This document shows positions 5,747-12,105 of a stretch of DNA of 45,751 nt, piece after piece. Each line of letters opens with the position of its first letter. Position 1 is the stretch's first letter. Under the pieces are notes generated by a model. That model saw only the letters and a list, made by a program, of their open reading frames with translations, ran no database searches and had not been told where the DNA came from. Origin of the DNA: a virus (Duplodnaviria; Heunggongvirae; Uroviricota; Caudoviricetes); IMG/VR virus record IMGVR_UViG_2537561830_000004; one strand, given 5' to 3'. Both the position numbers and the translations under genes were made by a program.

Positions 5747-6056
5747 TGCTTCTTGTTACGAAGCAATTTTCAAGGGGTTCTATCCGAATCCCTTTCTTTT
5801 CCATTAACAAGCCAAACCCCTTATTAATGATGTCCATTAATTCCAGGAAGTATTTTTTATGTAAATCCTGGTTATCAGAGAGTTGCTTCTCTTCGTACAG
5901 ACCGATAAAGGCACGACGCACGTTACCGGATATATTATCGATGGTTTCTTTTTCTACGGTACTCAGGTCAAGAGTCGCCAATTGAGAATGAACTATATTC
6001 GCTGCCATTTCCTGGAATGGCATTGGTAAATCTTTAAATTCCATCGTCAACCTCAT
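5715..6056 (-). CDS. hypothetical protein, second gene of leftward (PL-like) operon
   Basis: 113 aa; start ATG overlaps stop of upstream gene (TGATG coupling on minus strand); low GC. Confidence 0.4.
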   Translation of the reverse strand: MRLTMEFKDLPMPFQEMAANIVHSQLATLDLSTVEKETIDNISGNVRRAFIGLYEEKQLSDNQDLHKKYFLELMDIINKGFGLLMEKKGIRIEPLENCFVTRSINSFDSKQEN

Positions 6057-6286
6057 CAGTCAGTATTTCTGGCTAACCAGCGACGCGCGCCAGCTTCGGT
6101 TTTAAACGTTTTGCTTTTGGTATACGTCATCGCCGTGAACGTGCCGTCTTGGTTTGGAAACACGCCGTATACCAGAGACTCGTTGTTGCCAAGATCGATA
6201 GTATCCATGTTGACCTCATTTCCCCTTAACGCCGGGGTAGCGGAACAAAAACCTGCTGCATAGTTAAAGTTGAACCCTGCCGTCAT
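6056..6286 (-). CDS. hypothetical protein, first gene downstream of candidate PL promoter
   Basis: 76 aa; GAGG RBS; lies about 90 nt downstream of a predicted -35/-10 overlapped by an operator-like inverted repeat. Confidence 0.45.
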   Translation of the reverse strand: MTAGFNFNYAAGFCSATPALRGNEVNMDTIDLGNNESLVYGVFPNQDGTFTAMTYTKSKTFKTEAGARRWLARNTD

Positions 6287-6384
6287 GTTCTTACGCCTCG
6301 GGCTGGCTACTTAACCCCTGACCACTGCCTGGTAACTCGAAGTATTGCCCTGCATTCTGTAGGATGGGGTGAGGGAATGAATGA

Positions 6385-6433
6385 AGTTTAGAAAAACGAA
6401 CTTTTCAGGTCAATGTTTTTTTATCAAAACATT
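6385..6433 (-). promoter_or_regulatory. candidate PL promoter with OL operator (inverted repeat AATGTTTT-N6-AAAACATT)
   Basis: minus strand -35 TTGACC (6408-6413), 17 bp spacer, -10 TAAACT (6385-6390); perfect 8 bp-arm inverted repeat at 6412-6433 shares the GTTTT-N6-AAAAC core with repeats in the cI-cro intergenic region. Confidence 0.4.
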
Positions 6434-6497
6434 TTAAGCAGGCAGCTGTTAAGCCATCACCACGATGGCATACAGTTAATCAAATAGATGAGGTTGG

Positions 6498-7136
6498 TTA
6501 AATATCTTGTTGAATTTTAAAGCATACGCCCAATATGCAAGATAGATCATCCAGCATAATTGAAGGGTAGCGAGGATTCGTGGGGACTAAAAGAATATCC
6601 GGCCCTTCTATCTCCAGTTTACGAATGACAGGTGTTGTGGTCCCTTTGGGTAAGGCAAGGACAATATTTCCTGGTTGTACGGTTCGATCGGGATCAACAA
6701 AAACTGTTGAACCATTTGGGATGGAAACTCCCCCACCAGATGTTGACATACTGTCACTCTCTAGAACAACTGCAAAGGTATTGACCGGGATTTCTCCGAC
6801 AAGCTGCACACAAGAGGTTATTGAGGAATTTTTCATATAATCACTCCAGCTTGCTGCCTGCTGAAGTGATAGTAGCGGAACCGTTTTTATCGGCGGTAAA
6901 GATAGATCAAGCGAATCACCTGTATTTAACTCTCCTCCATTAAGAAGCCAATTTTCGTTTACTTTCAATATTTTTGCCAGTGAACTTATGTAACGCGAGG
7001 ACGGCGCTCCTCCACCGTTCATCCATTGACTTACGGAGCCTTTTGATGCGCCAGTGCCATTGACAAGGTCTTTGCCTTTCAGGTTTAGCGCATGCATACG
7101 TTGGGTTATGCGTTCAGATATAGTTTGCTTGCTCAT
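6498..7136 (-). CDS. cI: CI-like prophage repressor (N-terminal HTH, C-terminal S24 LexA-like autopeptidase)
   Basis: 212 aa; HTH GASKGSVSQWMNG; C-terminal LESDSM (Ser nucleophile) and VIRKL (Lys); divergent from cro-like gene. Confidence 0.85.
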   Translation of the reverse strand: MSKQTISERITQRMHALNLKGKDLVNGTGASKGSVSQWMNGGGAPSSRYISSLAKILKVNENWLLNGGELNTGDSLDLSLPPIKTVPLLSLQQAASWSDYMKNSSITSCVQLVGEIPVNTFAVVLESDSMSTSGGGVSIPNGSTVFVDPDRTVQPGNIVLALPKGTTTPVIRKLEIEGPDILLVPTNPRYPSIMLDDLSCILGVCFKIQQDI

Positions 7137-7198
7137 GTTTTGATTTTAAAACACAGATGGTTTTGTTTCTTGACTTTCTTTGGTTTTGATTATTAAAC
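7137..7198. promoter_or_regulatory. OR-like operator/promoter region (GTTTT-N6/7-AAAAC inverted repeats, PR -35 TTGACT)
   Basis: GTTTTGATTTTAAAAC at 7137-7152 and GTTTTGATTATTAAAC at 7183-7198; TTGACT at 7170-7175; between divergent cI and cro. Confidence 0.4.
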
Positions 7199-7227
7199 TT
7201 TTGACGTTCAGTTTTATGGAGCGACTC

Positions 7228-7458
7228 ATGAAAAAATCAGAAGTATTAGGCTATTTTGGCGGAGTTGTTAAAACAGCCGCAGCTCTTGGAACGTCAAAAA
7301 CCACAGTCAGCATGTGGGGGGAAGAGGTTCCGTGGAAATGGGCGTTGCTAATTCAGGCAGTCACTGCCGGGGCGCTCAAATATGAGTTACACATACCGAC
7401 GGTTGTCATTCCCGGTTCTGATCATAATCCGCCTTCTAACCAAGGGGGGGATTCATGA
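7228..7458 (+). CDS. cro: Cro-like HTH regulator (YdaS-like)
   Basis: GGAG RBS, ATG at 7228; 76 aa; HTH GGVVKTAAALGTSKTTVSMW; divergent from cI. Confidence 0.75.
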   Translation: MKKSEVLGYFGGVVKTAAALGTSKTTVSMWGEEVPWKWALLIQAVTAGALKYELHIPTVVIPGSDHNPPSNQGGDS

Positions 7459-7880
7459 AAATCAAGCATGAACACATCCGCATGGCGATGAATGCCTGGG
7501 CGCATCCGGACGGCGAAAAAGTACCGGCTGCGAAAATTACCAAAGCGTATTTCGAGCTGGGAATGACGTTCCCGGAACTGTATGACGACAGCCATCCGGA
7601 AGCCCTGGCTCGCAATACCCAGAAAATTTTCCGCTGGGTAGAGAAAGACACCCCTGATGCAGTTGAAAAAATTCAGGCGTTGTTACCAGCGATCGAAAAG
7701 GCAATGCCACCTTTGCTGGTGGCCAGAATGCGCAGCCACAGTTCAGCTTATTTTCGGGAGCTGGTGGAGACGCGGGAGCGACTGGTGAGAGACGCTGATG
7801 ATTTTGTCGCAGTGGCAATCGCCGGTTTCAATCAGATGAACCGTGGTGGCCCGGCAGGAAATGCTGTGGCAGTACATTGA
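7455..7880 (+). CDS. CII-analog regulator (YdaT-like, Rac/Qin-type immunity region)
   Basis: 141 aa starting MKIKHEHI, immediately after cro with start/stop overlap; family assignment from recalled similarity to E. coli YdaT. Confidence 0.6.
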   Translation: MKIKHEHIRMAMNAWAHPDGEKVPAAKITKAYFELGMTFPELYDDSHPEALARNTQKIFRWVEKDTPDAVEKIQALLPAIEKAMPPLLVARMRSHSSAYFRELVETRERLVRDADDFVAVAIAGFNQMNRGGPAGNAVAVH

Positions 7881-7951
7881 CTGACAATAGCCATATCGAA
7901 TCGCTTCCGGCAACTCGTGAGTAAAAAGATTCGGTATCAGAAGAGGTGAGT

Positions 7952-9022
7952 ATGGCTAACGCCTGGCTCAGATTATGGCATGACATGCCAAATGACCCTA
8001 AGTGGCGAACAATTGCCAGGGTGTCAGGGCAGCCAATTGCAACAGTGATGGCAGTGTATATCCACCTCCTGGTGAGCGCGTCACGAAATGTCACGCGAGG
8101 TCACATTGATGTCACGACAGAAGATTTGGCAAGTGCGCTCGACGTGACAGAAGAGGTAATTGATTCAATTTTGCAGACGATGCAGGGGCGGGTACTTGAT
8201 GGTGATTTAATCACTGGATGGGAAAAACGCCAGGTGCTGAAAGAGGACAACGGCAATATTTCGCAAACCGCAAAATCTCCGGCAGAGCGCAAGAGGGCGC
8301 AGCGAGAGAGGGAAAGAAAGCGGGAACAAAATGGCGATTGTCACGGCGAGTCACGAAATGTCACGCACATGTCACGACGAGTCACGACAGATAAAGATAC
8401 AGATAAAGATACAGATCAAGAAGATCAAAACACTATGGTCCATGGCGTAAAAAACGCCACGAACCAGGCAGGGGATGTTCAGACCGTCACTCCTGGCCAG
8501 CCCGCAGGCACGACACCGGAAGCCGATTCAGCGTATGCGCTGAAAGCCGATTCGGGCGCTGTGCAGCAGGTGATGACCGCAAGGCAGGAGCAATCACACC
8601 AACTTCAGCAGCCTGAAGCCGATTCCGCCATTCAGCGGGAAGCCGATCGGGTAGTCCCGGAAAACACCGGGCAGCCTGTGGGACGAGTGGATTATCCTGA
8701 TGTGTTCGAACAGATCTGGCGGGAATACCCGTTGCGTGCTGGGGCAAACCCGAAGAAATCCGCTTTCAGTGCCTGGAAGGCCAGATTACGCGAGGGGGTG
8801 TCACCAGAGGCCATGCTGGATGGCGTGAGGCGTTACGCAAGATACCTTGCGGCTACCGGGAAAACGGGAACGGAATTTGTTCAGCGAGCGACGACGTTTT
8901 TTGGACCGGACCGGAATTTTGAAAACCCCTGGCTGCTCCCGGTAAGCGGCACGAACAACCAGCGTTGTGTGAATCATATTTCTGAACCGGATACCGAAAT
9001 TCCACCGGGCTTCAGGGGGTAA
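7952..9022 (+). CDS. replication initiator (O-like) containing internal iteron arrays
   Basis: about 357 aa; AGAGG RBS then ATG at 7952; two clusters of GTCACG repeats at about 10 bp spacing inside the coding sequence; lambda O position. Confidence 0.6.
   Translation: MANAWLRLWHDMPNDPKWRTIARVSGQPIATVMAVYIHLLVSASRNVTRGHIDVTTEDLASALDVTEEVIDSILQTMQGRVLDGDLITGWEKRQVLKEDNGNISQTAKSPAERKRAQRERERKREQNGDCHGESRNVTHMSRRVTTDKDTDKDTDQEDQNTMVHGVKNATNQAGDVQTVTPGQPAGTTPEADSAYALKADSGAVQQVMTARQEQSHQLQQPEADSAIQREADRVVPENTGQPVGRVDYPDVFEQIWREYPLRAGANPKKSAFSAWKARLREGVSPEAMLDGVRRYARYLAATGKTGTEFVQRATTFFGPDRNFENPWLLPVSGTNNQRCVNHISEPDTEIPPGFRG
8080..8116. repeat. iteron cluster 1 (4 x GTCAC[G/A], 10-11 bp spacing)
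   Basis: GTCACG at 8080, 8090, 8111 and GTCACA at 8100. Confidence 0.5.
8340..8412. repeat. iteron cluster 2 (5 x GTCACG, 10-11 bp spacing) plus tandem GATAAAGATACA repeat; candidate origin
   Basis: GTCACG at 8340, 8350, 8360, 8371, 8381, followed by ACAGATAAAGATACAGATAAAGATACAGAT A-rich tract. Confidence 0.5.
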
Positions 9023-9062
9023 GTGTTGATTTCTGGTCATGAGGTAATTTTCAGGAGGACTT

Positions 9063-9485
9063 GTGGCAAAAGTTTTTACACAAGAAGAGCGAGAAAAAAT
9101 TAAAGGGCAGGTTGTTGAACTCGTACGCCAGAGTGGGCGTGAGACGTTACGGCAACTGCAAGTCAAGACAGGTGCGACAAGATATCTGATGAGCGTTCTC
9201 GCAAGAGAGCTGGTTGCCAGCGGCGATGTATACAACTCTGGTTACGGGTTATTCCCGTCTGAACAGGCGCGTAAGGACTGGCAAAATGCCCGTAAAAAGC
9301 TCTCAAGGGCAAAGCTGAAGAAACCATCTGCGGTTGATCCGGACCTTATCTGGTCATTACCTGACGGAGAAATACGTCGCTACGACAGGCGTCAGAACAT
9401 AATCTGTCGCGAGTGCCGGAAGAGTGAGGTTATGCAGCGAGTGCTGGCGTTTTATCAGGGTAATTTTCAGGAGGTGATGGCGTGA
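9063..9485 (+). CDS. hypothetical protein, possible winged-helix DNA-binding
   Basis: 140 aa ORF after the replication gene; AGGAGGA-like RBS. Confidence 0.45.
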   Translation: MAKVFTQEEREKIKGQVVELVRQSGRETLRQLQVKTGATRYLMSVLARELVASGDVYNSGYGLFPSEQARKDWQNARKKLSRAKLKKPSAVDPDLIWSLPDGEIRRYDRRQNIICRECRKSEVMQRVLAFYQGNFQEVMA

Positions 9486-9778
9486 GAGTGAGAGTCTATA
9501 TCGCCGGTCCAATGACCGGGTATAAAAATTTCAACCGTGAGGCGTTTCACAATGCGGAAGAGGAACTGAAACGGGAAGGGCATACCGTTTTAAATCCGGC
9601 TGTGCTTCCGGATGGGCTGACACAGCCGCACTACATGGATATTTGCATGGCAATGATTCGTTGTGTGGATGCGATTTACATGCTGAAAGGCTGGCAGCGG
9701 TCAGCAGGTGCTAAGGCAGAACTGGCGCTGGCGGAGAAACTGGGGCATGCAGTTATTTTCCAGGAGGAGGTACAGTGA
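9482..9778 (+). CDS. DUF4406-like protein (nucleoside 2-deoxyribosyltransferase-like fold), common in nin regions
   Basis: 98 aa; start overlaps upstream stop; motif VYIAGPMTG...LNP...WQRSAGAKAELALAEKLG. Confidence 0.55.
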   Translation: MRVRVYIAGPMTGYKNFNREAFHNAEEELKREGHTVLNPAVLPDGLTQPHYMDICMAMIRCVDAIYMLKGWQRSAGAKAELALAEKLGHAVIFQEEVQ

Positions 9779-10050
9779 ATATCGACGCAACAATGACGAT
9801 TGGTACGGCCCTCAATACGGGGCTGGCGCTTCTTGGTTGGTGCTACATCATGTTCTGCTCATGGCGGTGGCTGTCACTGATGTTACTGAAAGAATGGAAT
9901 AAACGCTGTAAACAGACGCAGCGGCAGAAGGCAATGAATGCGTTTTTTGAGACCTTCGATATTGACAGTATAGAACCAGGAGAGCCAGCTCGCGTGATTA
10001 GCAGAGGTGACGTTGTAATTCTTGTATACCGGAGTGAAGAGAAAGCATAA
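9775..10050 (+). CDS. small hypothetical membrane protein
   Basis: 91 aa; hydrophobic segment LALLGWCYIMFCSWRWLSLMLL; translationally coupled to upstream gene. Confidence 0.4.
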   Translation: MNIDATMTIGTALNTGLALLGWCYIMFCSWRWLSLMLLKEWNKRCKQTQRQKAMNAFFETFDIDSIEPGEPARVISRGDVVILVYRSEEKA

Positions 10051-10164
10051 TCCAAATCTGAATAATTAAATCCAGCACTGTAAATAAAATTTAATCCTTA
10101 ACCGGAGGGATTTCTGCACCCTCAGAACATCAGGAGGCCGCCCGAAAGGGCGGTGGAGATAATA

Positions 10165-10401
10165 ATGGAAATAACTAAAGAACGATTATTGGAAATAGCA
10201 AATCTTAGTGAAAGGGCATTAAGTGATGGGAGGATTATTTCTCCTGATGCTTATGAATCAGTTACAAGTATAGAAATAATAACGATGGCCAGGATGCTTC
10301 TTGGTTGCCTCAAAAAAGAATATAAAAAAAAGGTGGATAGCAATGCTAATATATATGATATTTTGGACAGTTGGGGGGGCTTGGGCTGCAGCTGGAAATA
10401 G
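10165..10401 (+). CDS. small hypothetical protein (low GC)
   Basis: GGTGGAG RBS then ATG at 10165; overlaps 5' end of the next gene in another frame; may be spurious. Confidence 0.2.
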   Translation: MEITKERLLEIANLSERALSDGRIISPDAYESVTSIEIITMARMLLGCLKKEYKKKVDSNANIYDILDSWGGLGCSWK

Positions 10402-10690
10402 TTCTATCAACTGGCGGCAAGTGGCTGATAAATATAAAGATGTAGTACCTCATGGTAAGAAATTACGCCGTCAGTGTGGCAACGATGAAGGTCGTATGAT
10501 TGATACCTGCATGTTGAAGCTTAAACAATATAGAATAGATGACTATGAGTTAATTATCGCTCATTTTGTTATAGGTATATCTTTGCGTACAATAGCACGA
10601 AGGTACAAATGTTCAGATGGAACAATAAGAAAGAATATACAACTTACAATGGGAGTATTGTTAGGATTGTCTTTTTATGTGCAATTATAG
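10343..10690 (+). CDS. Q-family late antiterminator-like protein (phage 21 Q / QuuD-like), low GC
   Basis: about 115 aa from the ATG at 10343; WTVGGAWAAAG ... RRQCGNDEGRMIDTCML ... VIGISLRTIARRYKCSDGTIRKNIQ pattern matches recalled Q21/QuuD; ORF track gives 10301..10690. Confidence 0.5.
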   Translation: MLIYMIFWTVGGAWAAAGNSSINWRQVADKYKDVVPHGKKLRRQCGNDEGRMIDTCMLKLKQYRIDDYELIIAHFVIGISLRTIARRYKCSDGTIRKNIQLTMGVLLGLSFYVQL

Positions 10691-10695
10691 ATATA

Positions 10696-11175
10696 TCACA
10701 TGAGCCTTGTTATGTCTTTTAGACGCGACCAGGTAGTATAAAATTTTTTAAATGTAATAAGCAGGAAAAAAATTCCCACTTGGAGTAATAGTTGGGCATA
10801 TGTGTGCTCGTCGGCATCTTTTACTAGTGGGAATTTAAACTTTAGTGTATCAGGGAAAAATAATAAAATGATAAAAATAATACAAACTGATAGTAACCAT
10901 CCCATAGTGGAGTGCATTTCTTCGGTCAGTTTTTTCAAATAACCAGTTTTTCCTATATTTCTAATTAGCGTATTATCTCTAGCTGAAGCAATCAAGGTAA
11001 GCGAACCTAAAACAAAGCCAAATAATATCCCAGAAAATGTAGAAACGGCCGAAGCGATTGGCTGAATTTGTGCAAAATTTAGCTTTGCAGAAAGAGGCCA
11101 TGCGATGATACAAAAAACAGCAGAGGCTAAATTATAACCATAACTGTACAAAGTTATCAATTTCCCCTTTTTCAT
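10696..11175 (-). CDS. small inner-membrane protein with four predicted TM helices, RexB-like
   Basis: 159 aa; four hydrophobic helices; GGAG RBS; 15 bp downstream of the 304 aa gene; about 33-35% GC; STFSGILFGFVLGSLTLIASARDNTLIRNIGKTGYL resembles recalled lambda RexB. Confidence 0.55.
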   Translation of the reverse strand: MKKGKLITLYSYGYNLASAVFCIIAWPLSAKLNFAQIQPIASAVSTFSGILFGFVLGSLTLIASARDNTLIRNIGKTGYLKKLTEEMHSTMGWLLSVCIIFIILLFFPDTLKFKFPLVKDADEHTYAQLLLQVGIFFLLITFKKFYTTWSRLKDITRLM

Positions 11176-11190
11176 ACCATCGCTCCAAAA

Positions 11191-12105
11191 TTAATCAACT
11201 CTTTGATTGGCTACTCCAAAGTATGCCTTCAATTCATCATCTTTACTATCTTTTGCAAGAGTTAAGGCGCTCCAAATGCTGCCAACTAATGGATACCTAC
11301 CTCCAAGTTCAACATCTGTGTAGTAGACTAATTTGTCTGCTACAAGATCGATAGGATGCTGTACACCGGTCTCAATGTCTTGGGTTTCTAGTTTAAGTTT
11401 TTCAACCTCAAAAGTCTCTAGTGTTTCTTTAAAGGCTCTTTTTAGTTGAGAACCTAGATAGCGAGATTCAGGATCTTCAGAACGACTATCCCCACGTAAT
11501 GTAAGATTTACTTTGGCAGAATTAGTACCATTTAGAGTGGCTATCAATGCATTGTTGAAGTTATGTTCAACATCCTCATATAGTTGCACATTCTTTGGCC
11601 GAGCGATACCGATTTCTAGAGTTTTGATTCGAACTTCATTACGCATCAACCACTTTAAACTACTGGTCTGAATGATGGGATTAACAGTTGTATTTTGTGA
11701 ACTGTTGGAAAGATATTTACTTAATAGCAACCAGCCATAACAGAGTCTGTTTCGTTGAATTATTAAAACTGAGTCTTGGGTATAAAAATGAAAATAAGCT
11801 TTTTCTAATAAGTTTTCATTGATTTCAAGTTTAATTTCTCTTTCTTCACCTCCGGCTACAGCAACATGAGGGAGATTATTGGTTCTGTGTTTTCCTATAA
11901 CTCCCCTGAAACCATAGTCGGTTCTTTCCATGAAGCGCATTTCAACTAGTTTATTTCCTATTTTACGTACAGTTTTGTCTCGGCCTTCGCTGTATGACTC
12001 AAAAATTTTTGAAAAAACAGCTTCAGGTGAATTAACTCCTGCATTTGTATCAGTGCTTATAGTGTGACATTGATAAAAATCGAAGAAAAAGCGCTTGCTA
12101 GCCAT
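11191..12105 (-). CDS. soluble 304 aa protein, candidate RexA-like sensor partner
   Basis: 304 aa, no TM segments, no recognisable NTPase or nuclease motif; co-oriented with and immediately upstream of the 4-TM gene; low GC. Confidence 0.5.
   Translation of the reverse strand: MASKRFFFDFYQCHTISTDTNAGVNSPEAVFSKIFESYSEGRDKTVRKIGNKLVEMRFMERTDYGFRGVIGKHRTNNLPHVAVAGGEEREIKLEINENLLEKAYFHFYTQDSVLIIQRNRLCYGWLLLSKYLSNSSQNTTVNPIIQTSSLKWLMRNEVRIKTLEIGIARPKNVQLYEDVEHNFNNALIATLNGTNSAKVNLTLRGDSRSEDPESRYLGSQLKRAFKETLETFEVEKLKLETQDIETGVQHPIDLVADKLVYYTDVELGGRYPLVGSIWSALTLAKDSKDDELKAYFGVANQRVD

What the first reader, a model, noticed from the sequence alone, without database searches (positions are those of the whole stretch)
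8080..8412. Two iteron arrays with helical periodicity inside the replication initiator gene
GTCACG (once GTCACA) is repeated 4 times (8080-8116) and 5 times (8340-8386) at 10-11 bp spacing, the second array followed by a tandem GATAAAGATACA repeat and an A-rich tract. This is the lambda O/ori arrangement, with the origin inside the initiator gene. The 260 bp separation into two clusters is unusual.
Basis: seen in the sequence. Interest (0 to 1): 0.45.

Follow-up and report, generated by a model that had tools for sequence, protein, structure and literature searches.

The report
Two-part iteron origin inside prophage initiator gene
A prophage replication-initiator gene carries two clusters of a short repeated DNA word that are conserved as DNA rather than as protein code, most likely the initiator's own binding sites forming a two-part replication origin; this is a variant of the phage lambda design.

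Summary
GTCAC(G/A) occurs 4 times (8080-8116) and 5 times (8340-8386) at 10-11 bp spacing, with an inverted copy at 8143-8148. These are the only phased runs of 4 or more copies of any 5-mer in the window, and none appeared in 200 shuffles.

The repeats sit in all three reading frames of a 356-aa initiator (7952-9022), so they are not a peptide repeat. This protein has a winged-helix N-terminal domain of the replisome-organizer type. Its C-terminal domain is weakly DnaD-like and ends in a DnaT-like tail.

Across 20 diverged homologues from beta- and gammaproteobacteria, synonymous sites inside the array-1 cores are nearly frozen (0.11 vs 1.48 bits, p=7e-6). Both arrays recur at the same gene positions. 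Three lineages use different cores (GTCACG, GTAACG, CGAACG), and each has its own core in both arrays. Only the N-terminal domain always travels with the arrays.

Array 2 lies in the disordered linker and is followed by an A-rich hexamer repeat and a palindrome, as in oriλ. The protein is not a λ O homologue and the iterons are of a different type. The two-cluster layout is a conserved family trait and recurs in a sequence-unrelated initiator family.

Origin function and the role of array 1 are inferred, not shown.

The parts
7952..9022 (+). Replication initiator gene (356 aa from ATG 7952; the ORF finder lists GTG 7946). It encodes an N-terminal winged-helix domain, a disordered linker, a C-terminal helical domain and a DnaT-like tail.
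   Evidence: phrog_3729 'replication initiation protein', E 2.8e-256 over the full length. There is no Pfam hit above threshold; Phage_rep_org_N scores 16.4 bits against a cut-off of 23.3, over residues 5-123. Sources name it 'phage replisome organizer'. It is 97-99% identical in phages Tritos, Evi and vB_EcoS-640R1.
8080..8116 (+). Iteron array 1: four GTCAC(G/A) cores at 8080, 8090, 8100 and 8111. It encodes residues 43-56, the end of a helix plus the beta-1 loop of the winged-helix domain.
   Evidence: Synonymous-codon entropy in the cores is 0.11 bits against 1.48 bits in 50 other conserved codons across 20 diverged homologues (p=7e-6). The array sits at the same ORF offset (128-159) in more than 20 loci. 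AlphaFold2 model.
8143..8148 (-). Single inverted GTCACG copy, encoding Asp-Val-Thr at the start of the predicted recognition helix.
   Evidence: Present at ORF offset about 191 in most GTCAC-group loci and absent in four (L012, L013, L014, L017).
8340..8386 (+). Iteron array 2: five GTCACG cores at 8340, 8350, 8360, 8371 and 8381. It encodes residues 130-145 in the disordered linker.
   Evidence: Linker pLDDT is below 50. The cores are invariant and the spacers variable across 20 loci. In 82 near-identical copies of the gene, SNPs fall only in the spacers.
8387..8433 (+). A-rich, purine-strand hexamer/12-mer repeat (ACAGATAAAGAT about 3 times, then GATCAAGAAGATCAAAACAC). This is the candidate DNA-unwinding element.
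   Evidence: Tandem repeat. GC minimum 0.33 with AT skew +0.5. 'nnAGAT(A/T)A' directly after the last iteron is invariant in 20 loci. Unit number varies by +6 or +12 bp among close relatives. (GATAAA)n or (GATACA)n follows array 2 in most loci, in all three iteron-specificity groups.
8436..8466 (.). Imperfect palindrome (13-nt arms, 5-nt loop) immediately after the A-rich tract.
   Evidence: (I11). The single-stranded DNA hairpin has dG -8.7 kcal/mol, z -2.85. The homologous site in phage PhiR5_2 has -13 kcal/mol, z -5.3, and a compensatory T.A to A.T change at the loop-closing pair. A palindrome at this position is significant in only about 11 of 38 loci.
8699..8899 (+). C-terminal helical domain (about residues 250-316), proposed to recruit the helicase or primosome.
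8954..9019 (+). C-terminal tail QRCVNHISEPDTEIPPGFRG, resembling the C-terminus of E. coli DnaT.
   Evidence: phmmer against PDB chains of DnaT: 6aep E 0.017, 2ru8 E 0.023, 9zbt E 0.062. NCBIfam DnaT model, profile positions 156-179 of 179, E 0.0014.

Best explanation
What it is. The two GTCACG arrays are most likely the binding sites (iterons) of the initiator protein whose gene contains them. Together they would form a two-part replication origin of this lambdoid prophage.

Inferred mechanism.
1. Monomers of the N-terminal winged-helix domain bind head-to-tail, one per helical turn, on one face of the DNA at array 2 and at array 1.
2. The complex at array 2 destabilises the adjoining A-rich (GATAAAGATACA)n tract at 8387-8433, which serves as the unwinding element. 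A palindrome follows it at 8436-8466. The order iterons, A-rich tract, palindrome matches oriλ.
3. Array 1 lies 260 bp upstream, inside the winged-helix coding segment. It is a second, co-evolving cluster that either joins the same nucleoprotein complex (a loop or wrap of about 260 bp) or acts as a control site (titration, handcuffing or a transcriptional roadblock).
4. No phage helicase or helicase loader is encoded downstream. The C-terminal domain, weakly DnaD-like and ending in a DnaT-like tail, is therefore inferred to recruit the host DnaB-DnaC or primosome machinery.

Shown here: the DNA-level constraint, the conserved positions, the co-variation of the two arrays, and the exclusive association with the N-terminal domain.

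Inferred: binding, unwinding, origin firing and host-factor recruitment.
For: 1. The arrays are far beyond chance: no phased run of 4 or more copies in 200 shuffles.
2. The cores fall in all three reading frames.
3. In 20 homologues of 50-78% N-terminal identity, from Aquitalea, Bordetella, Pseudomonas, Acidovorax, Serratia, Rahnella and others, the eight conserved-residue codons overlapping array-1 cores are essentially fixed: GTC 20/20, ACG 20/20, GGT 20/20, CAC 20/20, TCA 19/20. Their mean codon entropy is 0.11 bits, against 1.48 bits for 50 other conserved codons (Mann-Whitney p=7e-6).
4. Both arrays recur at the same ORF offsets in more than 20 loci.
5. Three specificity groups (GTCACG, GTAACG, CGAACG) each carry their own core in both arrays. 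L028 differs from its close relatives L024 and L026, which shows a further switch in both arrays.
6. Indels in the arrays are 21 bp, equal to two units or 7 residues (DNA of L005).
7. In 82 near-identical E. coli copies of the gene, all array SNPs fall in the spacers.
8. Among loci carrying GTCAC arrays outside the Escherichia/Shigella relatives (L004, L005), only the N-terminal domain is retained. CI, YdaT/CII-like, DUF977 and, except in L023, the window's C-terminal domain are undetectable; weak Cro-like matches occur in only two loci. C-terminal domains are swapped right after the A-rich repeat.
10. The A-rich repeat starts at a fixed distance from the last iteron and is the GC minimum of the gene.
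11. No helicase or helicase-loader gene lies between the initiator and Q.
12. A sequence-unrelated initiator family (PhiR5_2 type) has the same two-cluster layout.
13. Precedent exists for origins made of direct repeats plus an AT-rich region inside the initiator gene: λ (PMC7466680) and SPP1 gp38/oriL (PMC6316719).
Against: - There is no experimental evidence for binding, unwinding or origin firing, for this phage or for any family member I could find.
- The A-rich tract is only moderately AT-rich (GC 0.33-0.38).
- The inter-array DNA is not AT-rich.
- The helical phase between the arrays is not conserved. Start-to-start distances among relatives include 250, 258, 260, 262, 278, 281, 309 and 350 bp, which weakens a strict looping model.
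- Array 1 is absent in some clades of the family (L030, L032, L038, L040, L041), so it may be dispensable.
- The 20 sequences in the synonymous-site test are phylogenetically related, not independent.
- A conserved host factor binding the cores cannot be excluded by sequence analysis alone.
Confidence: 0.75

Rival explanations
1. Only array 2, with the A-rich tract and the palindrome, is the origin. Array 1 is a separate control element bound by the same initiator. It could be an autoregulatory roadblock inside the initiator's own gene, or a titration or handcuffing site that limits initiation, like the incA and incC iteron arrays of plasmids P1 and F.
For: - Array 1 has no adjacent A-rich tract.
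- It is missing in some clades that keep a reduced array 2.
- The helical phase between the arrays is not conserved.
- The inverted copy at 8143, together with the fourth direct copy, resembles an operator-like pair (I8, I9).
Against: - Array 1 is conserved as strictly as array 2 over beta- and gammaproteobacteria.
- A lytic-phase phage origin has no obvious need for copy-number limitation.
- No promoter lies next to array 1.
- The same two-cluster layout in an unrelated initiator family, with the second cluster in either orientation, fits an architectural role as well as a regulatory one.
Confidence: 0.3
2. The repeats are bound by something other than the encoded initiator. Candidates are a host factor conserved across Proteobacteria or another phage protein. 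They would then serve regulation, partition or packaging rather than replication initiation, for example as a centromere built like parC.
For: - Binding was not tested.
- Two clusters of about five 10-11-bp-spaced repeats resemble the plasmid R1 parC layout (from my own knowledge).
- Group-specific residues in the canonical recognition helix are few.
Against: - The core switches between GTCACG, GTAACG and CGAACG among lineages while always staying inside the N-terminal-domain gene. A conserved host factor would not tolerate this.
- Outside the Escherichia/Shigella relatives, no neighbouring phage gene of the window is consistently kept in loci that carry the arrays.
- No par-like gene was noticed next to the initiator in the stretches I scanned.
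- GTCACG is not enriched elsewhere in the window.
Confidence: 0.07
3. The repeats are a by-product of a repeated peptide motif (SRNVT / VT...), or of mRNA-level constraints, and have no DNA-binding role.
For: The peptide 'SRNVT' is encoded in both arrays (8084-8094 and 8354-8364 are identical, D19). The linker is low-complexity.
Against: - Successive cores are read in three different frames: S-R, V-T and G-H in array 1; C-H, S-R and V-T in array 2.
- Fourfold-degenerate positions inside the cores are invariant while spacer positions are saturated.
- Spacer-encoded residues vary freely.
- No Rfam family or RNA structure matches.
- In the parallel PhiR5_2 family the second array occurs in either orientation, which makes sense only for double-stranded DNA.
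Confidence: 0.02

Closest known systems
Phage lambda oriλ and O protein (also the Stx phages 933W and P27)
   Same: - The origin lies inside the initiator gene, at the boundary between an N-terminal DNA-binding domain and a C-terminal recruitment domain.
- An array of direct repeats is followed by an A-rich tract (PMC7466680) and then a palindrome (the palindrome from my own knowledge).
- The N-terminal domain and the iterons behave as one exchangeable module, with recombination junctions just after the origin.
- Iteron copy number varies among relatives.
   Different: - No sequence homology to λ O.
- The cores are 6-7 bp, asymmetric and spaced 10-11 bp apart, instead of about 19-bp dyad-symmetric iterons.
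- There are two clusters 260 bp apart, one embedded in the DNA-binding-domain coding sequence.
- No P-type helicase loader follows. The C-terminus is weakly DnaD-like and carries a DnaT-like tail.
Replisome-organizer initiators of Firmicutes phages (SPP1 gp38 with oriL and oriR; Pfam Phage_rep_org_N, e.g. lactococcal phage Rep proteins)
   Same: - Weak full-length match of the N-terminal domain to Phage_rep_org_N and to PHROG 'replisome organizer' families.
- Winged-helix fold close to the DnaD N-terminal domain.
- In SPP1, the direct repeats and AT-rich unwinding element of oriL lie inside gene 38, and a second, similarly organised site exists (PMC6316719).
   Different: - The Pfam score is below the gathering threshold.
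- The host range is Proteobacteria.
- SPP1's second site (oriR) is about 13 kb away, not 260 bp away inside the same gene.
- SPP1 encodes its own helicase loader and helicase (gp39, gp40); this prophage does not.
Iteron plasmids with a second, controlling iteron array (P1 incC/incA, F ori2/incC), and satellite phage P4 ori plus crr
   Same: Two separate clusters of the same initiator-binding repeat, one at the unwinding site and one at a distance, close to or flanking the initiator gene (from my own knowledge).
   Different: - The initiator families are different and the repeats are longer (19-22 bp for P1 and F).
- Those clusters lie outside coding sequence.
- Their roles (copy-number control by handcuffing; crr as a cis-required enhancer) are shown experimentally there and are unknown here.
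PhiR5_2 / Stx-phage 75/02 (Eru4) type initiators
   Same: - The same C-terminal domain, palindrome and DnaT-like tail.
- The same two-cluster design: AAGGGGCTTC twice inside the N-terminal-domain coding region, and 2-3 times in the linker about 255 bp downstream at 11-bp spacing, followed by a purine-rich hexamer repeat.
   Different: - The N-terminal domain is unrelated by sequence.
- The core sequence is different.
- The second cluster is inverted in some lineages.
- A DnaC-like gene follows.

Membership tests
Lambda O / oriλ | Initiator homologous to λ O (Pfam Phage_rep_O) | tested here: not met
   No Phage_rep_O match for the whole protein at E<=0.01 or for the N-terminal part at E<=10.
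Lambda O / oriλ | Origin located inside the initiator gene, between the DNA-binding domain and the recruitment domain | tested here: met
   Array 2 encodes residues 130-145 in the disordered linker between the two folded domains. The position is met; origin activity was not tested.
Lambda O / oriλ | Four to six iterons of about 19 bp with internal dyad symmetry | tested here: not met
   The cores are 6-7 bp, asymmetric, spaced 10-11 bp apart and arranged in two clusters.
Lambda O / oriλ | AT-rich tract directly next to the iterons | tested here: met
   GC 0.33 at 8380-8439. The junction to the last iteron is invariant in 20 loci.
Lambda O / oriλ | Partner helicase-loader gene (P) directly downstream | tested here: not met
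   The downstream genes are DUF977/Ren-like, DUF4406, DUF4752 and Q.
Phage replisome organizer (Pfam Phage_rep_org_N) | N-terminal domain matches the family profile above its curated threshold | tested here: inconclusive
   E 0.009 and 16.4 bits against a cut-off of 23.3, but the match is end to end (residues 5-123 against profile 1-119 of 121). PHROG replisome-organizer families match at 6.6e-6 and 1e-4. NCBI sources name the protein 'phage replisome organizer'.
Phage replisome organizer (Pfam Phage_rep_org_N) | Winged-helix DNA-binding fold | tested here: met
Iteron-type replication origin (general) | At least three direct repeats of one motif next to an AT-rich unwinding element | tested here: met
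   Five cores followed by an A-rich repeat.
Iteron-type replication origin (general) | The repeat sequence co-varies with the initiator's DNA-binding domain | tested here: met
   Three core types, each present in both arrays of its lineage, always inside the N-terminal-domain gene.
Iteron-type replication origin (general) | The initiator binds the repeats, and the fragment supports initiator-dependent replication | not testable with these tools
   This needs EMSA or footprinting and an ori-test plasmid.
DnaD/DnaT-like primosome adaptor (C-terminal part) | DnaD C-terminal-domain fold | tested here: inconclusive
DnaD/DnaT-like primosome adaptor (C-terminal part) | DnaT C-terminal tail motif SEPDxxIPPGFRG | tested here: met
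   Residues 332-356 align to the last 25 residues of DnaT chains 6aep, 2ru8 and 9zbt (E 0.017-0.06) and to the NCBIfam DnaT model. The similarity is confined to the tail.

The most novel reading that the evidence does not exclude
Array 1 may be a self-referential dual code. The same nucleotides would serve as initiator-binding sites and would encode the residues that set the initiator's iteron specificity: the beta-1 loop at residues 44-55 and Asp-Val-Thr at the start of the recognition helix. A change of iteron sequence would then alter site and reader together, which would explain how both arrays and the protein switch specificity in concert (GTCACG, GTAACG, CGAACG). The support is that, within residues 1-100, the only strongly group-specific residues between the GTCAC and GAACG lineages are 46, 48 and 51, all encoded by array 1, plus the conservative I70V.
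Probability: 0.12. Interest if true: 0.8.

Novelty: new variant of a known kind. Interest (0 to 1): 0.5.

Why it matters
**Annotation gap.** This initiator type is very common in E. coli, Shigella and Salmonella prophages, including O157 prophages, and occurs across beta- and gammaproteobacteria (1437 relatives at E<=0.001 in the protein search). Its C-terminal module is shared with the non-lambdoid "Eru4" Stx phage. The papers that classify these replication regions do not locate an origin. A sequence-readable origin signature would allow origins of such prophages to be annotated: phased 6-bp cores in two clusters, an A-rich hexamer repeat, then a palindrome.

**Overlapping codes.** The layout is a clear natural example of a cis-acting DNA code laid over a protein code in all three frames. 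It also documents repeated concerted switches of origin specificity.

**Possible host dependence.** If the inferred mechanism holds, the DnaT-like tail, and the DnaT DNA-binding domain seen in sister variants, suggest that these phages start replication by acting as an origin-targeted mimic of the host restart primosome. That would matter for understanding the host dependencies of Stx-type prophage induction.

Tried and rejected
1. **Peptide-repeat explanation.** Rejected on the frame analysis and the synonymous-site analysis.
2. **DnaA boxes near the arrays.** None within one mismatch in 7900-9100.
3. **Known RNA families.** None apply. The only Rfam hit in 6000-10500 is a chance lncRNA match at E 0.15.
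4. **Internal promoters or terminators.** Counts are at shuffle expectation. The only notable site is the 8436-8466 hairpin.
5. **Conserved helical phase between the two arrays.** Not conserved: start-to-start distances range from 250 to 350 bp with scattered fractional turns. I therefore do not claim phase-locked looping.
6. **A universal palindrome after the A-rich tract.** Significant in only about 11 of 38 loci, and my automatic anchor mis-placed the window's own tract. I treat it as a feature of some C-terminal modules.
7. **Solved-structure relatives.**
   - Sequence search of the PDB: only the DnaT tail matches.
   - Foldseek with the N-terminal model: all hits above E 0.1.
8. **Homology between this N-terminal domain and the PhiR5_2-type one.** hhalign finds none.
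9. **Prior descriptions in the literature.** Seven full-text searches found none for this family. One of them was wasted by a setting that was too loose. Weigel & Seitz 2006, the main catalogue of phage replication modules, is not in the searchable library and may cover related cases.
10. **Role of the last about 20 residues of DnaT.** I read Ducos et al. 2026 (PMC13377028) but found nothing specific, so the tail's partner is left open.
Full report
**1. The observation**

Reading 7400-9200 and an exact search confirm the repeats.
- Array 1: GTCACG at 8080, 8090 and 8111, and GTCACA at 8100.
- Array 2: GTCACG at 8340, 8350, 8360, 8371 and 8381.
- Spacings are 10/10/11 and 10/10/11/10 bp.

Tandem Repeats Finder reports the second array and an ACAGATAAAGAT repeat (2.9 copies, 8387-8421). 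The GC minimum of the gene (0.33) is at 8380-8439, with strong A-over-T skew.

The window-wide count of GTCACG (21) equals the shuffle expectation (20.8), but 9 of the 21 lie in 8080-8386. A custom scan asked for runs of any 5-mer spaced 10-11 bp apart. It found these two arrays as the only runs of 4 or more copies in the 45.7-kb window. None occurred in 200 dinucleotide-preserving shuffles.

**2. Genomic context**

The arrays lie in a 356-aa ORF (7952-9022, + strand). The surrounding genes follow the lambdoid early-right order:
- CI-like repressor (6498-7136, minus strand; Peptidase_S24 plus HTH);
- P22-Cro-like protein (7180-7458);
- CII-like / YdaT protein (7455-7880);
- the ORF itself;
- DUF977 / Ren-like protein (9063-9485), then DUF4406, DUF4752 and a Q antiterminator (10301-10690).

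No DnaB, DnaC or P-like gene is present between the initiator and Q.

The ORF is phrog_3729 'replication initiation protein' (E 2.8e-256). Sources call it 'phage replisome organizer'. It is 97-99% identical in the temperate coliphages Tritos, Evi and vB_EcoS-640R1.

Pfam gives no hit above threshold. The N-terminal 133 residues match Phage_rep_org_N end to end, but at 16.4 bits against a cut-off of 23.3. There is no match to λ O.

**3. Structure of the protein**

*Where the arrays fall.* Array 1 encodes residues 43-56, the end of the first winged-helix helix plus the beta-1 loop. The inverted copy encodes Asp-Val-Thr at the start of the recognition helix. Array 2 encodes residues 130-145 of the disordered linker.

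*The tail.* The last 25 residues (…NHISEPDTEIPPGFRG) align to the C-terminus of E. coli DnaT. The same tail ends the unrelated O-like initiator of phage HannyBb. It also ends family members P0099 and P0115.

**4. The repeats are constrained as DNA, not as peptide**

Successive cores are read in different frames:
- gcG TCA CGa gives Ser-Arg;
- GTC ACG gives Val-Thr;
- gGT CAC att gives Gly-His.

I aligned 20 homologues without indels. They come from Aquitalea, Entomomonas, Rahnella, Serratia, Bordetella, Pseudomonas, Gilvimarinus, Acidovorax, Chromobacterium and others, and their N-terminal identity to the window is about 50-78%.
- Third codon positions inside the cores have a mean entropy of 0.11 bits (n=8, six of them zero). 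The other 108 third positions average 1.37 bits (p=8e-6).
- Taking only codons whose residue is conserved, synonymous-codon entropy is 0.11 bits (n=8) against 1.48 bits (n=50), p=7e-6.
- The fixed codons are GTC 20/20, ACG 20/20, GGT 20/20, CAC 20/20 and TCA 19/20.
- The Arg codon that lies in a spacer uses all four third bases.

In array 2 the cores are invariant and the spacers, with the residues they encode, vary freely. The sequence after the last core, nnAGAT(A/T)A, is invariant.

Among 82 near-identical E. coli copies (52 distinct sequences), every SNP in the arrays lies in a spacer. The 12-bp A-rich unit varies in number.

Length differences in the arrays are 21 bp, equal to two units or seven residues. 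There is a TCHGVSL insertion in array 1 of many O157-type variants, and a 7-residue deletion in array 2 of P0113 (DNA of L005).

**5. The two-array layout is a family trait, and both arrays switch together**

In 40 loci from GTDB genomes, the GTCAC group has array 1 at ORF offset 128-159 and array 2 at about 376-417 or a little later. The group has about 22 loci spanning beta- and gammaproteobacteria.

Other lineages have a different core in both arrays:
- CGAACG(C) in L031, L033, L034, L036 and L042. Here array 1 encodes SNATERGRTQ and array 2 encodes TQPNATERxRTP.
- GTAACG in L024, L026, L035 and L037.
- L028 has a protein close to L024 and L026 but carries GTCAC in both arrays, which indicates a further switch.

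The three cores form a graded series sharing ACG.

With GTAACG, one reading frame would contain a TAA stop. The arrays of that group accordingly use 21-bp steps and palindromic GTAACGTTAC units. This shows the coding constraint shaping the arrangement of sites.

Array 2 is followed by (GATAAA)n or (GATACA)n in most loci, in all three specificity groups.

Five loci lack a recognisable array 1: L030, L032 and L038, which have only 1-2 degenerate copies at array 2, and L040 and L041, which have an inserted domain and a different repeat.

**6. What travels with the arrays**

tblastn with the window's CI, Cro, YdaT-like, DUF977 and initiator C-terminal domain was run against these loci.
- The window's neighbour genes are kept only in the Shigella and E. 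albertii relatives (L004, L005).
- Outside these, the window's C-terminal domain is detectable in only one GTCAC-group locus (L023).
- There are weak Cro-like matches in two other loci.
- Otherwise the GTCAC arrays co-occur only with the N-terminal domain.

The protein alignment shows the N-terminal domain, plus the array-2-encoded and DK/DT-repeat segments, joined to at least four different C-termini. These are the window's type, the DnaT DNA-binding domain PF17948 (64 bits in L005), DUF1627, and others. The break point is right after the A-rich repeat. The same modular behaviour is known for λ-type O genes.

Between the GTCAC and GAACG lineages, the only strongly group-specific residues within 1-100 are 46, 48 and 51, all encoded by array 1, plus I70V. 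Further differences, including a 9-residue indel, lie in the basic segment 101-117.

**7. Comparison with λ and other systems**

oriλ lies in the middle of O and consists of four iterons and an AT-rich tract (PMC7466680). From my own knowledge, the iterons are about 19 bp with internal symmetry, and a palindrome follows the AT-rich tract.

Here array 2, the A-rich repeat and the 8436-8466 palindrome follow the same order.
- The palindrome folds as single-stranded DNA with dG -8.7 kcal/mol (z -2.85).
- Its homologue in phage PhiR5_2 folds with -13 kcal/mol (z -5.3) and has a compensatory T.A to A.T exchange.
- A palindrome at this position is significant in only about 11 of 38 loci.

The differences from λ are a non-homologous initiator, short asymmetric cores at one per helical turn, a second cluster, and no P gene.

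Phage HannyBb illustrates the classical single-array form. It has GGTCAAAATG five times at 23-24 bp spacing, then ACAGAGAATA repeats.

SPP1 gp38, a replisome organizer, binds direct repeats next to an AT-rich unwinding element in oriL inside its own gene. It also binds a second site, oriR, about 13 kb away (PMC6316719).

**8. An independent second example**

The initiator of phage PhiR5_2 shares the window's C-terminal domain, palindrome and tail, but it has an N-terminal domain with no detectable relation (hhalign). Shigella Stx phage 75/02, the 'Eru4' representative in PMC8951638, shares the same C-terminal region.

Across 80 viral contigs of this family (identity 60-100%):
- AAGGGGCTTC occurs twice at ORF 184 and 195, inside the N-terminal-domain coding region.
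- It occurs two or three times at about 440-462 in the linker. Spacing is 11 bp in both places.
- A purine-rich (CAAGAACAGGAA)n repeat follows.
- The second cluster is inverted in some lineages and direct in others.

The two-cluster design, with one cluster in the DNA-binding-domain coding sequence and one in the linker next to a purine-rich hexamer repeat, therefore recurs in two sequence-unrelated initiator families. This argues that it is functional.

**9. Mechanism: shown and inferred**

*Shown.* DNA-level selection acts on both arrays. Their positions are conserved. Their core sequence switches in concert. They are linked exclusively to the N-terminal winged-helix domain. The junction to an A-rich repeat is fixed. 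There is no phage helicase or helicase loader.

*Inferred.*
- Winged-helix monomers bind head-to-tail at each helical turn, as winged-helix proteins of the OmpR/PhoB type do on 10-11-bp direct repeats (my own knowledge).
- The A-rich tract melts.
- The C-terminal domain and DnaT-like tail bring in host DnaB-DnaC or primosome components.

Ducos et al. 2026 (PMC13377028) describe the DnaT C-terminal domain as docking on PriA and forming a filament on ssDNA, and they suggest that DnaT recruits DnaB/DnaC. Sister variants of this initiator carry that very DnaT domain. This fits an 'origin-targeted DnaT' idea but does not prove it.

The role of array 1 is open. It could take part in one large complex or act as a control site. 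The distance between the arrays varies among relatives (start-to-start 250-350 bp) without a conserved helical phase.

**10. Novelty and limits**

Seven full-text searches found no description of iterons or an origin for this family. The two papers that classify non-lambdoid Stx-phage replication regions do not mention iterons or origins. Older subscription literature, notably Weigel & Seitz 2006, could not be searched.

The kind, an iteron origin inside a phage initiator gene, is well known. The variant features are the two-cluster layout, the overlap with the winged-helix coding sequence in three frames, the concerted specificity switches, and the DnaT-like C-termini. All functional statements rest on comparative sequence evidence. 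No binding or replication data exist here.

Noticed in passing
window 8954-9019: The last 22-25 residues of the initiator (QRCVNHISEPDTEIPPGFRG) closely match the extreme C-terminus of the E. coli restart protein DnaT. The same tail ends the unrelated O-like initiator of phage HannyBb (L003), and also P0099 and P0115. Sister variants such as L005 instead carry the DnaT DNA-binding domain PF17948.
   Followed up: partly
window 8519-8650: GAAGCCGAT or AAAGCCGAT occurs four times (8519, 8543, 8615, 8639), always in the same reading frame, giving an (E/K)AD(S/R) peptide repeat. A 96-bp deletion between copies yields the common 324-aa variant (P0009). Unlike the iterons, this could be either a peptide repeat or a DNA repeat.
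   Followed up: partly
L002 2584-2605 and 2838-2893; L124-L203: A sequence-unrelated initiator family (PhiR5_2 / Eru4 type) has its own two-cluster repeat. AAGGGGCTTC occurs twice in the N-terminal-domain coding region, and 2-3 times about 255 bp downstream at 11-bp spacing, followed by (CAAGAACAGGAA)n. The second cluster is inverted in some lineages and direct in others.
   Followed up: partly
L003 2447-2600: The O-like gene of phage HannyBb shows a classical single array: GGTCAAAATG five times at 23-24 bp spacing, followed by ACAGAGAATA repeats ending in AAAACAC. The window's A-rich tract ends the same way.
   Followed up: no
window 8436-8466: A palindrome directly after the A-rich tract also scores as a terminator-like hairpin on the minus strand. 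It is conserved, with a compensatory base-pair change, in PhiR5_2 (L002 2912-2942).
   Followed up: partly
L024, L026, L035, L037 (about ORF 130-230 and 350-460): In lineages whose core is GTAACG, one reading frame would contain a TAA stop. Their arrays use 21-bp steps and palindromic GTAACGTTAC units instead of a regular 10-11 bp ladder. Here the coding constraint reshapes a cis-element.
   Followed up: no
L040 3001-4191, L041 3001-4305: Two family members (Serratia MAG, Pantoea) have an insertion of about 100 residues after the N-terminal domain, with a weak MUG113 / GIY-YIG-like match (E 0.0036). They carry a different repeat (GTAGTACTACG-like) and no array 1.
   Followed up: partly
window 10696-12105 (minus strand): Two leftward genes lie just downstream of the first Q-like antiterminator gene (10301-10690). 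One is a DUF6731 protein of 304 aa and the other a 159-aa protein with no Pfam match that looks hydrophobic by eye. Their orientation and position suggest an inserted moron, possibly a defence cassette.
   Followed up: no
window, outside 7952-9022: GTCACG occurs 12 times outside the initiator gene, against about 20 expected from shuffles of the whole window. This is a mild depletion and is not significant on its own.
   Followed up: no
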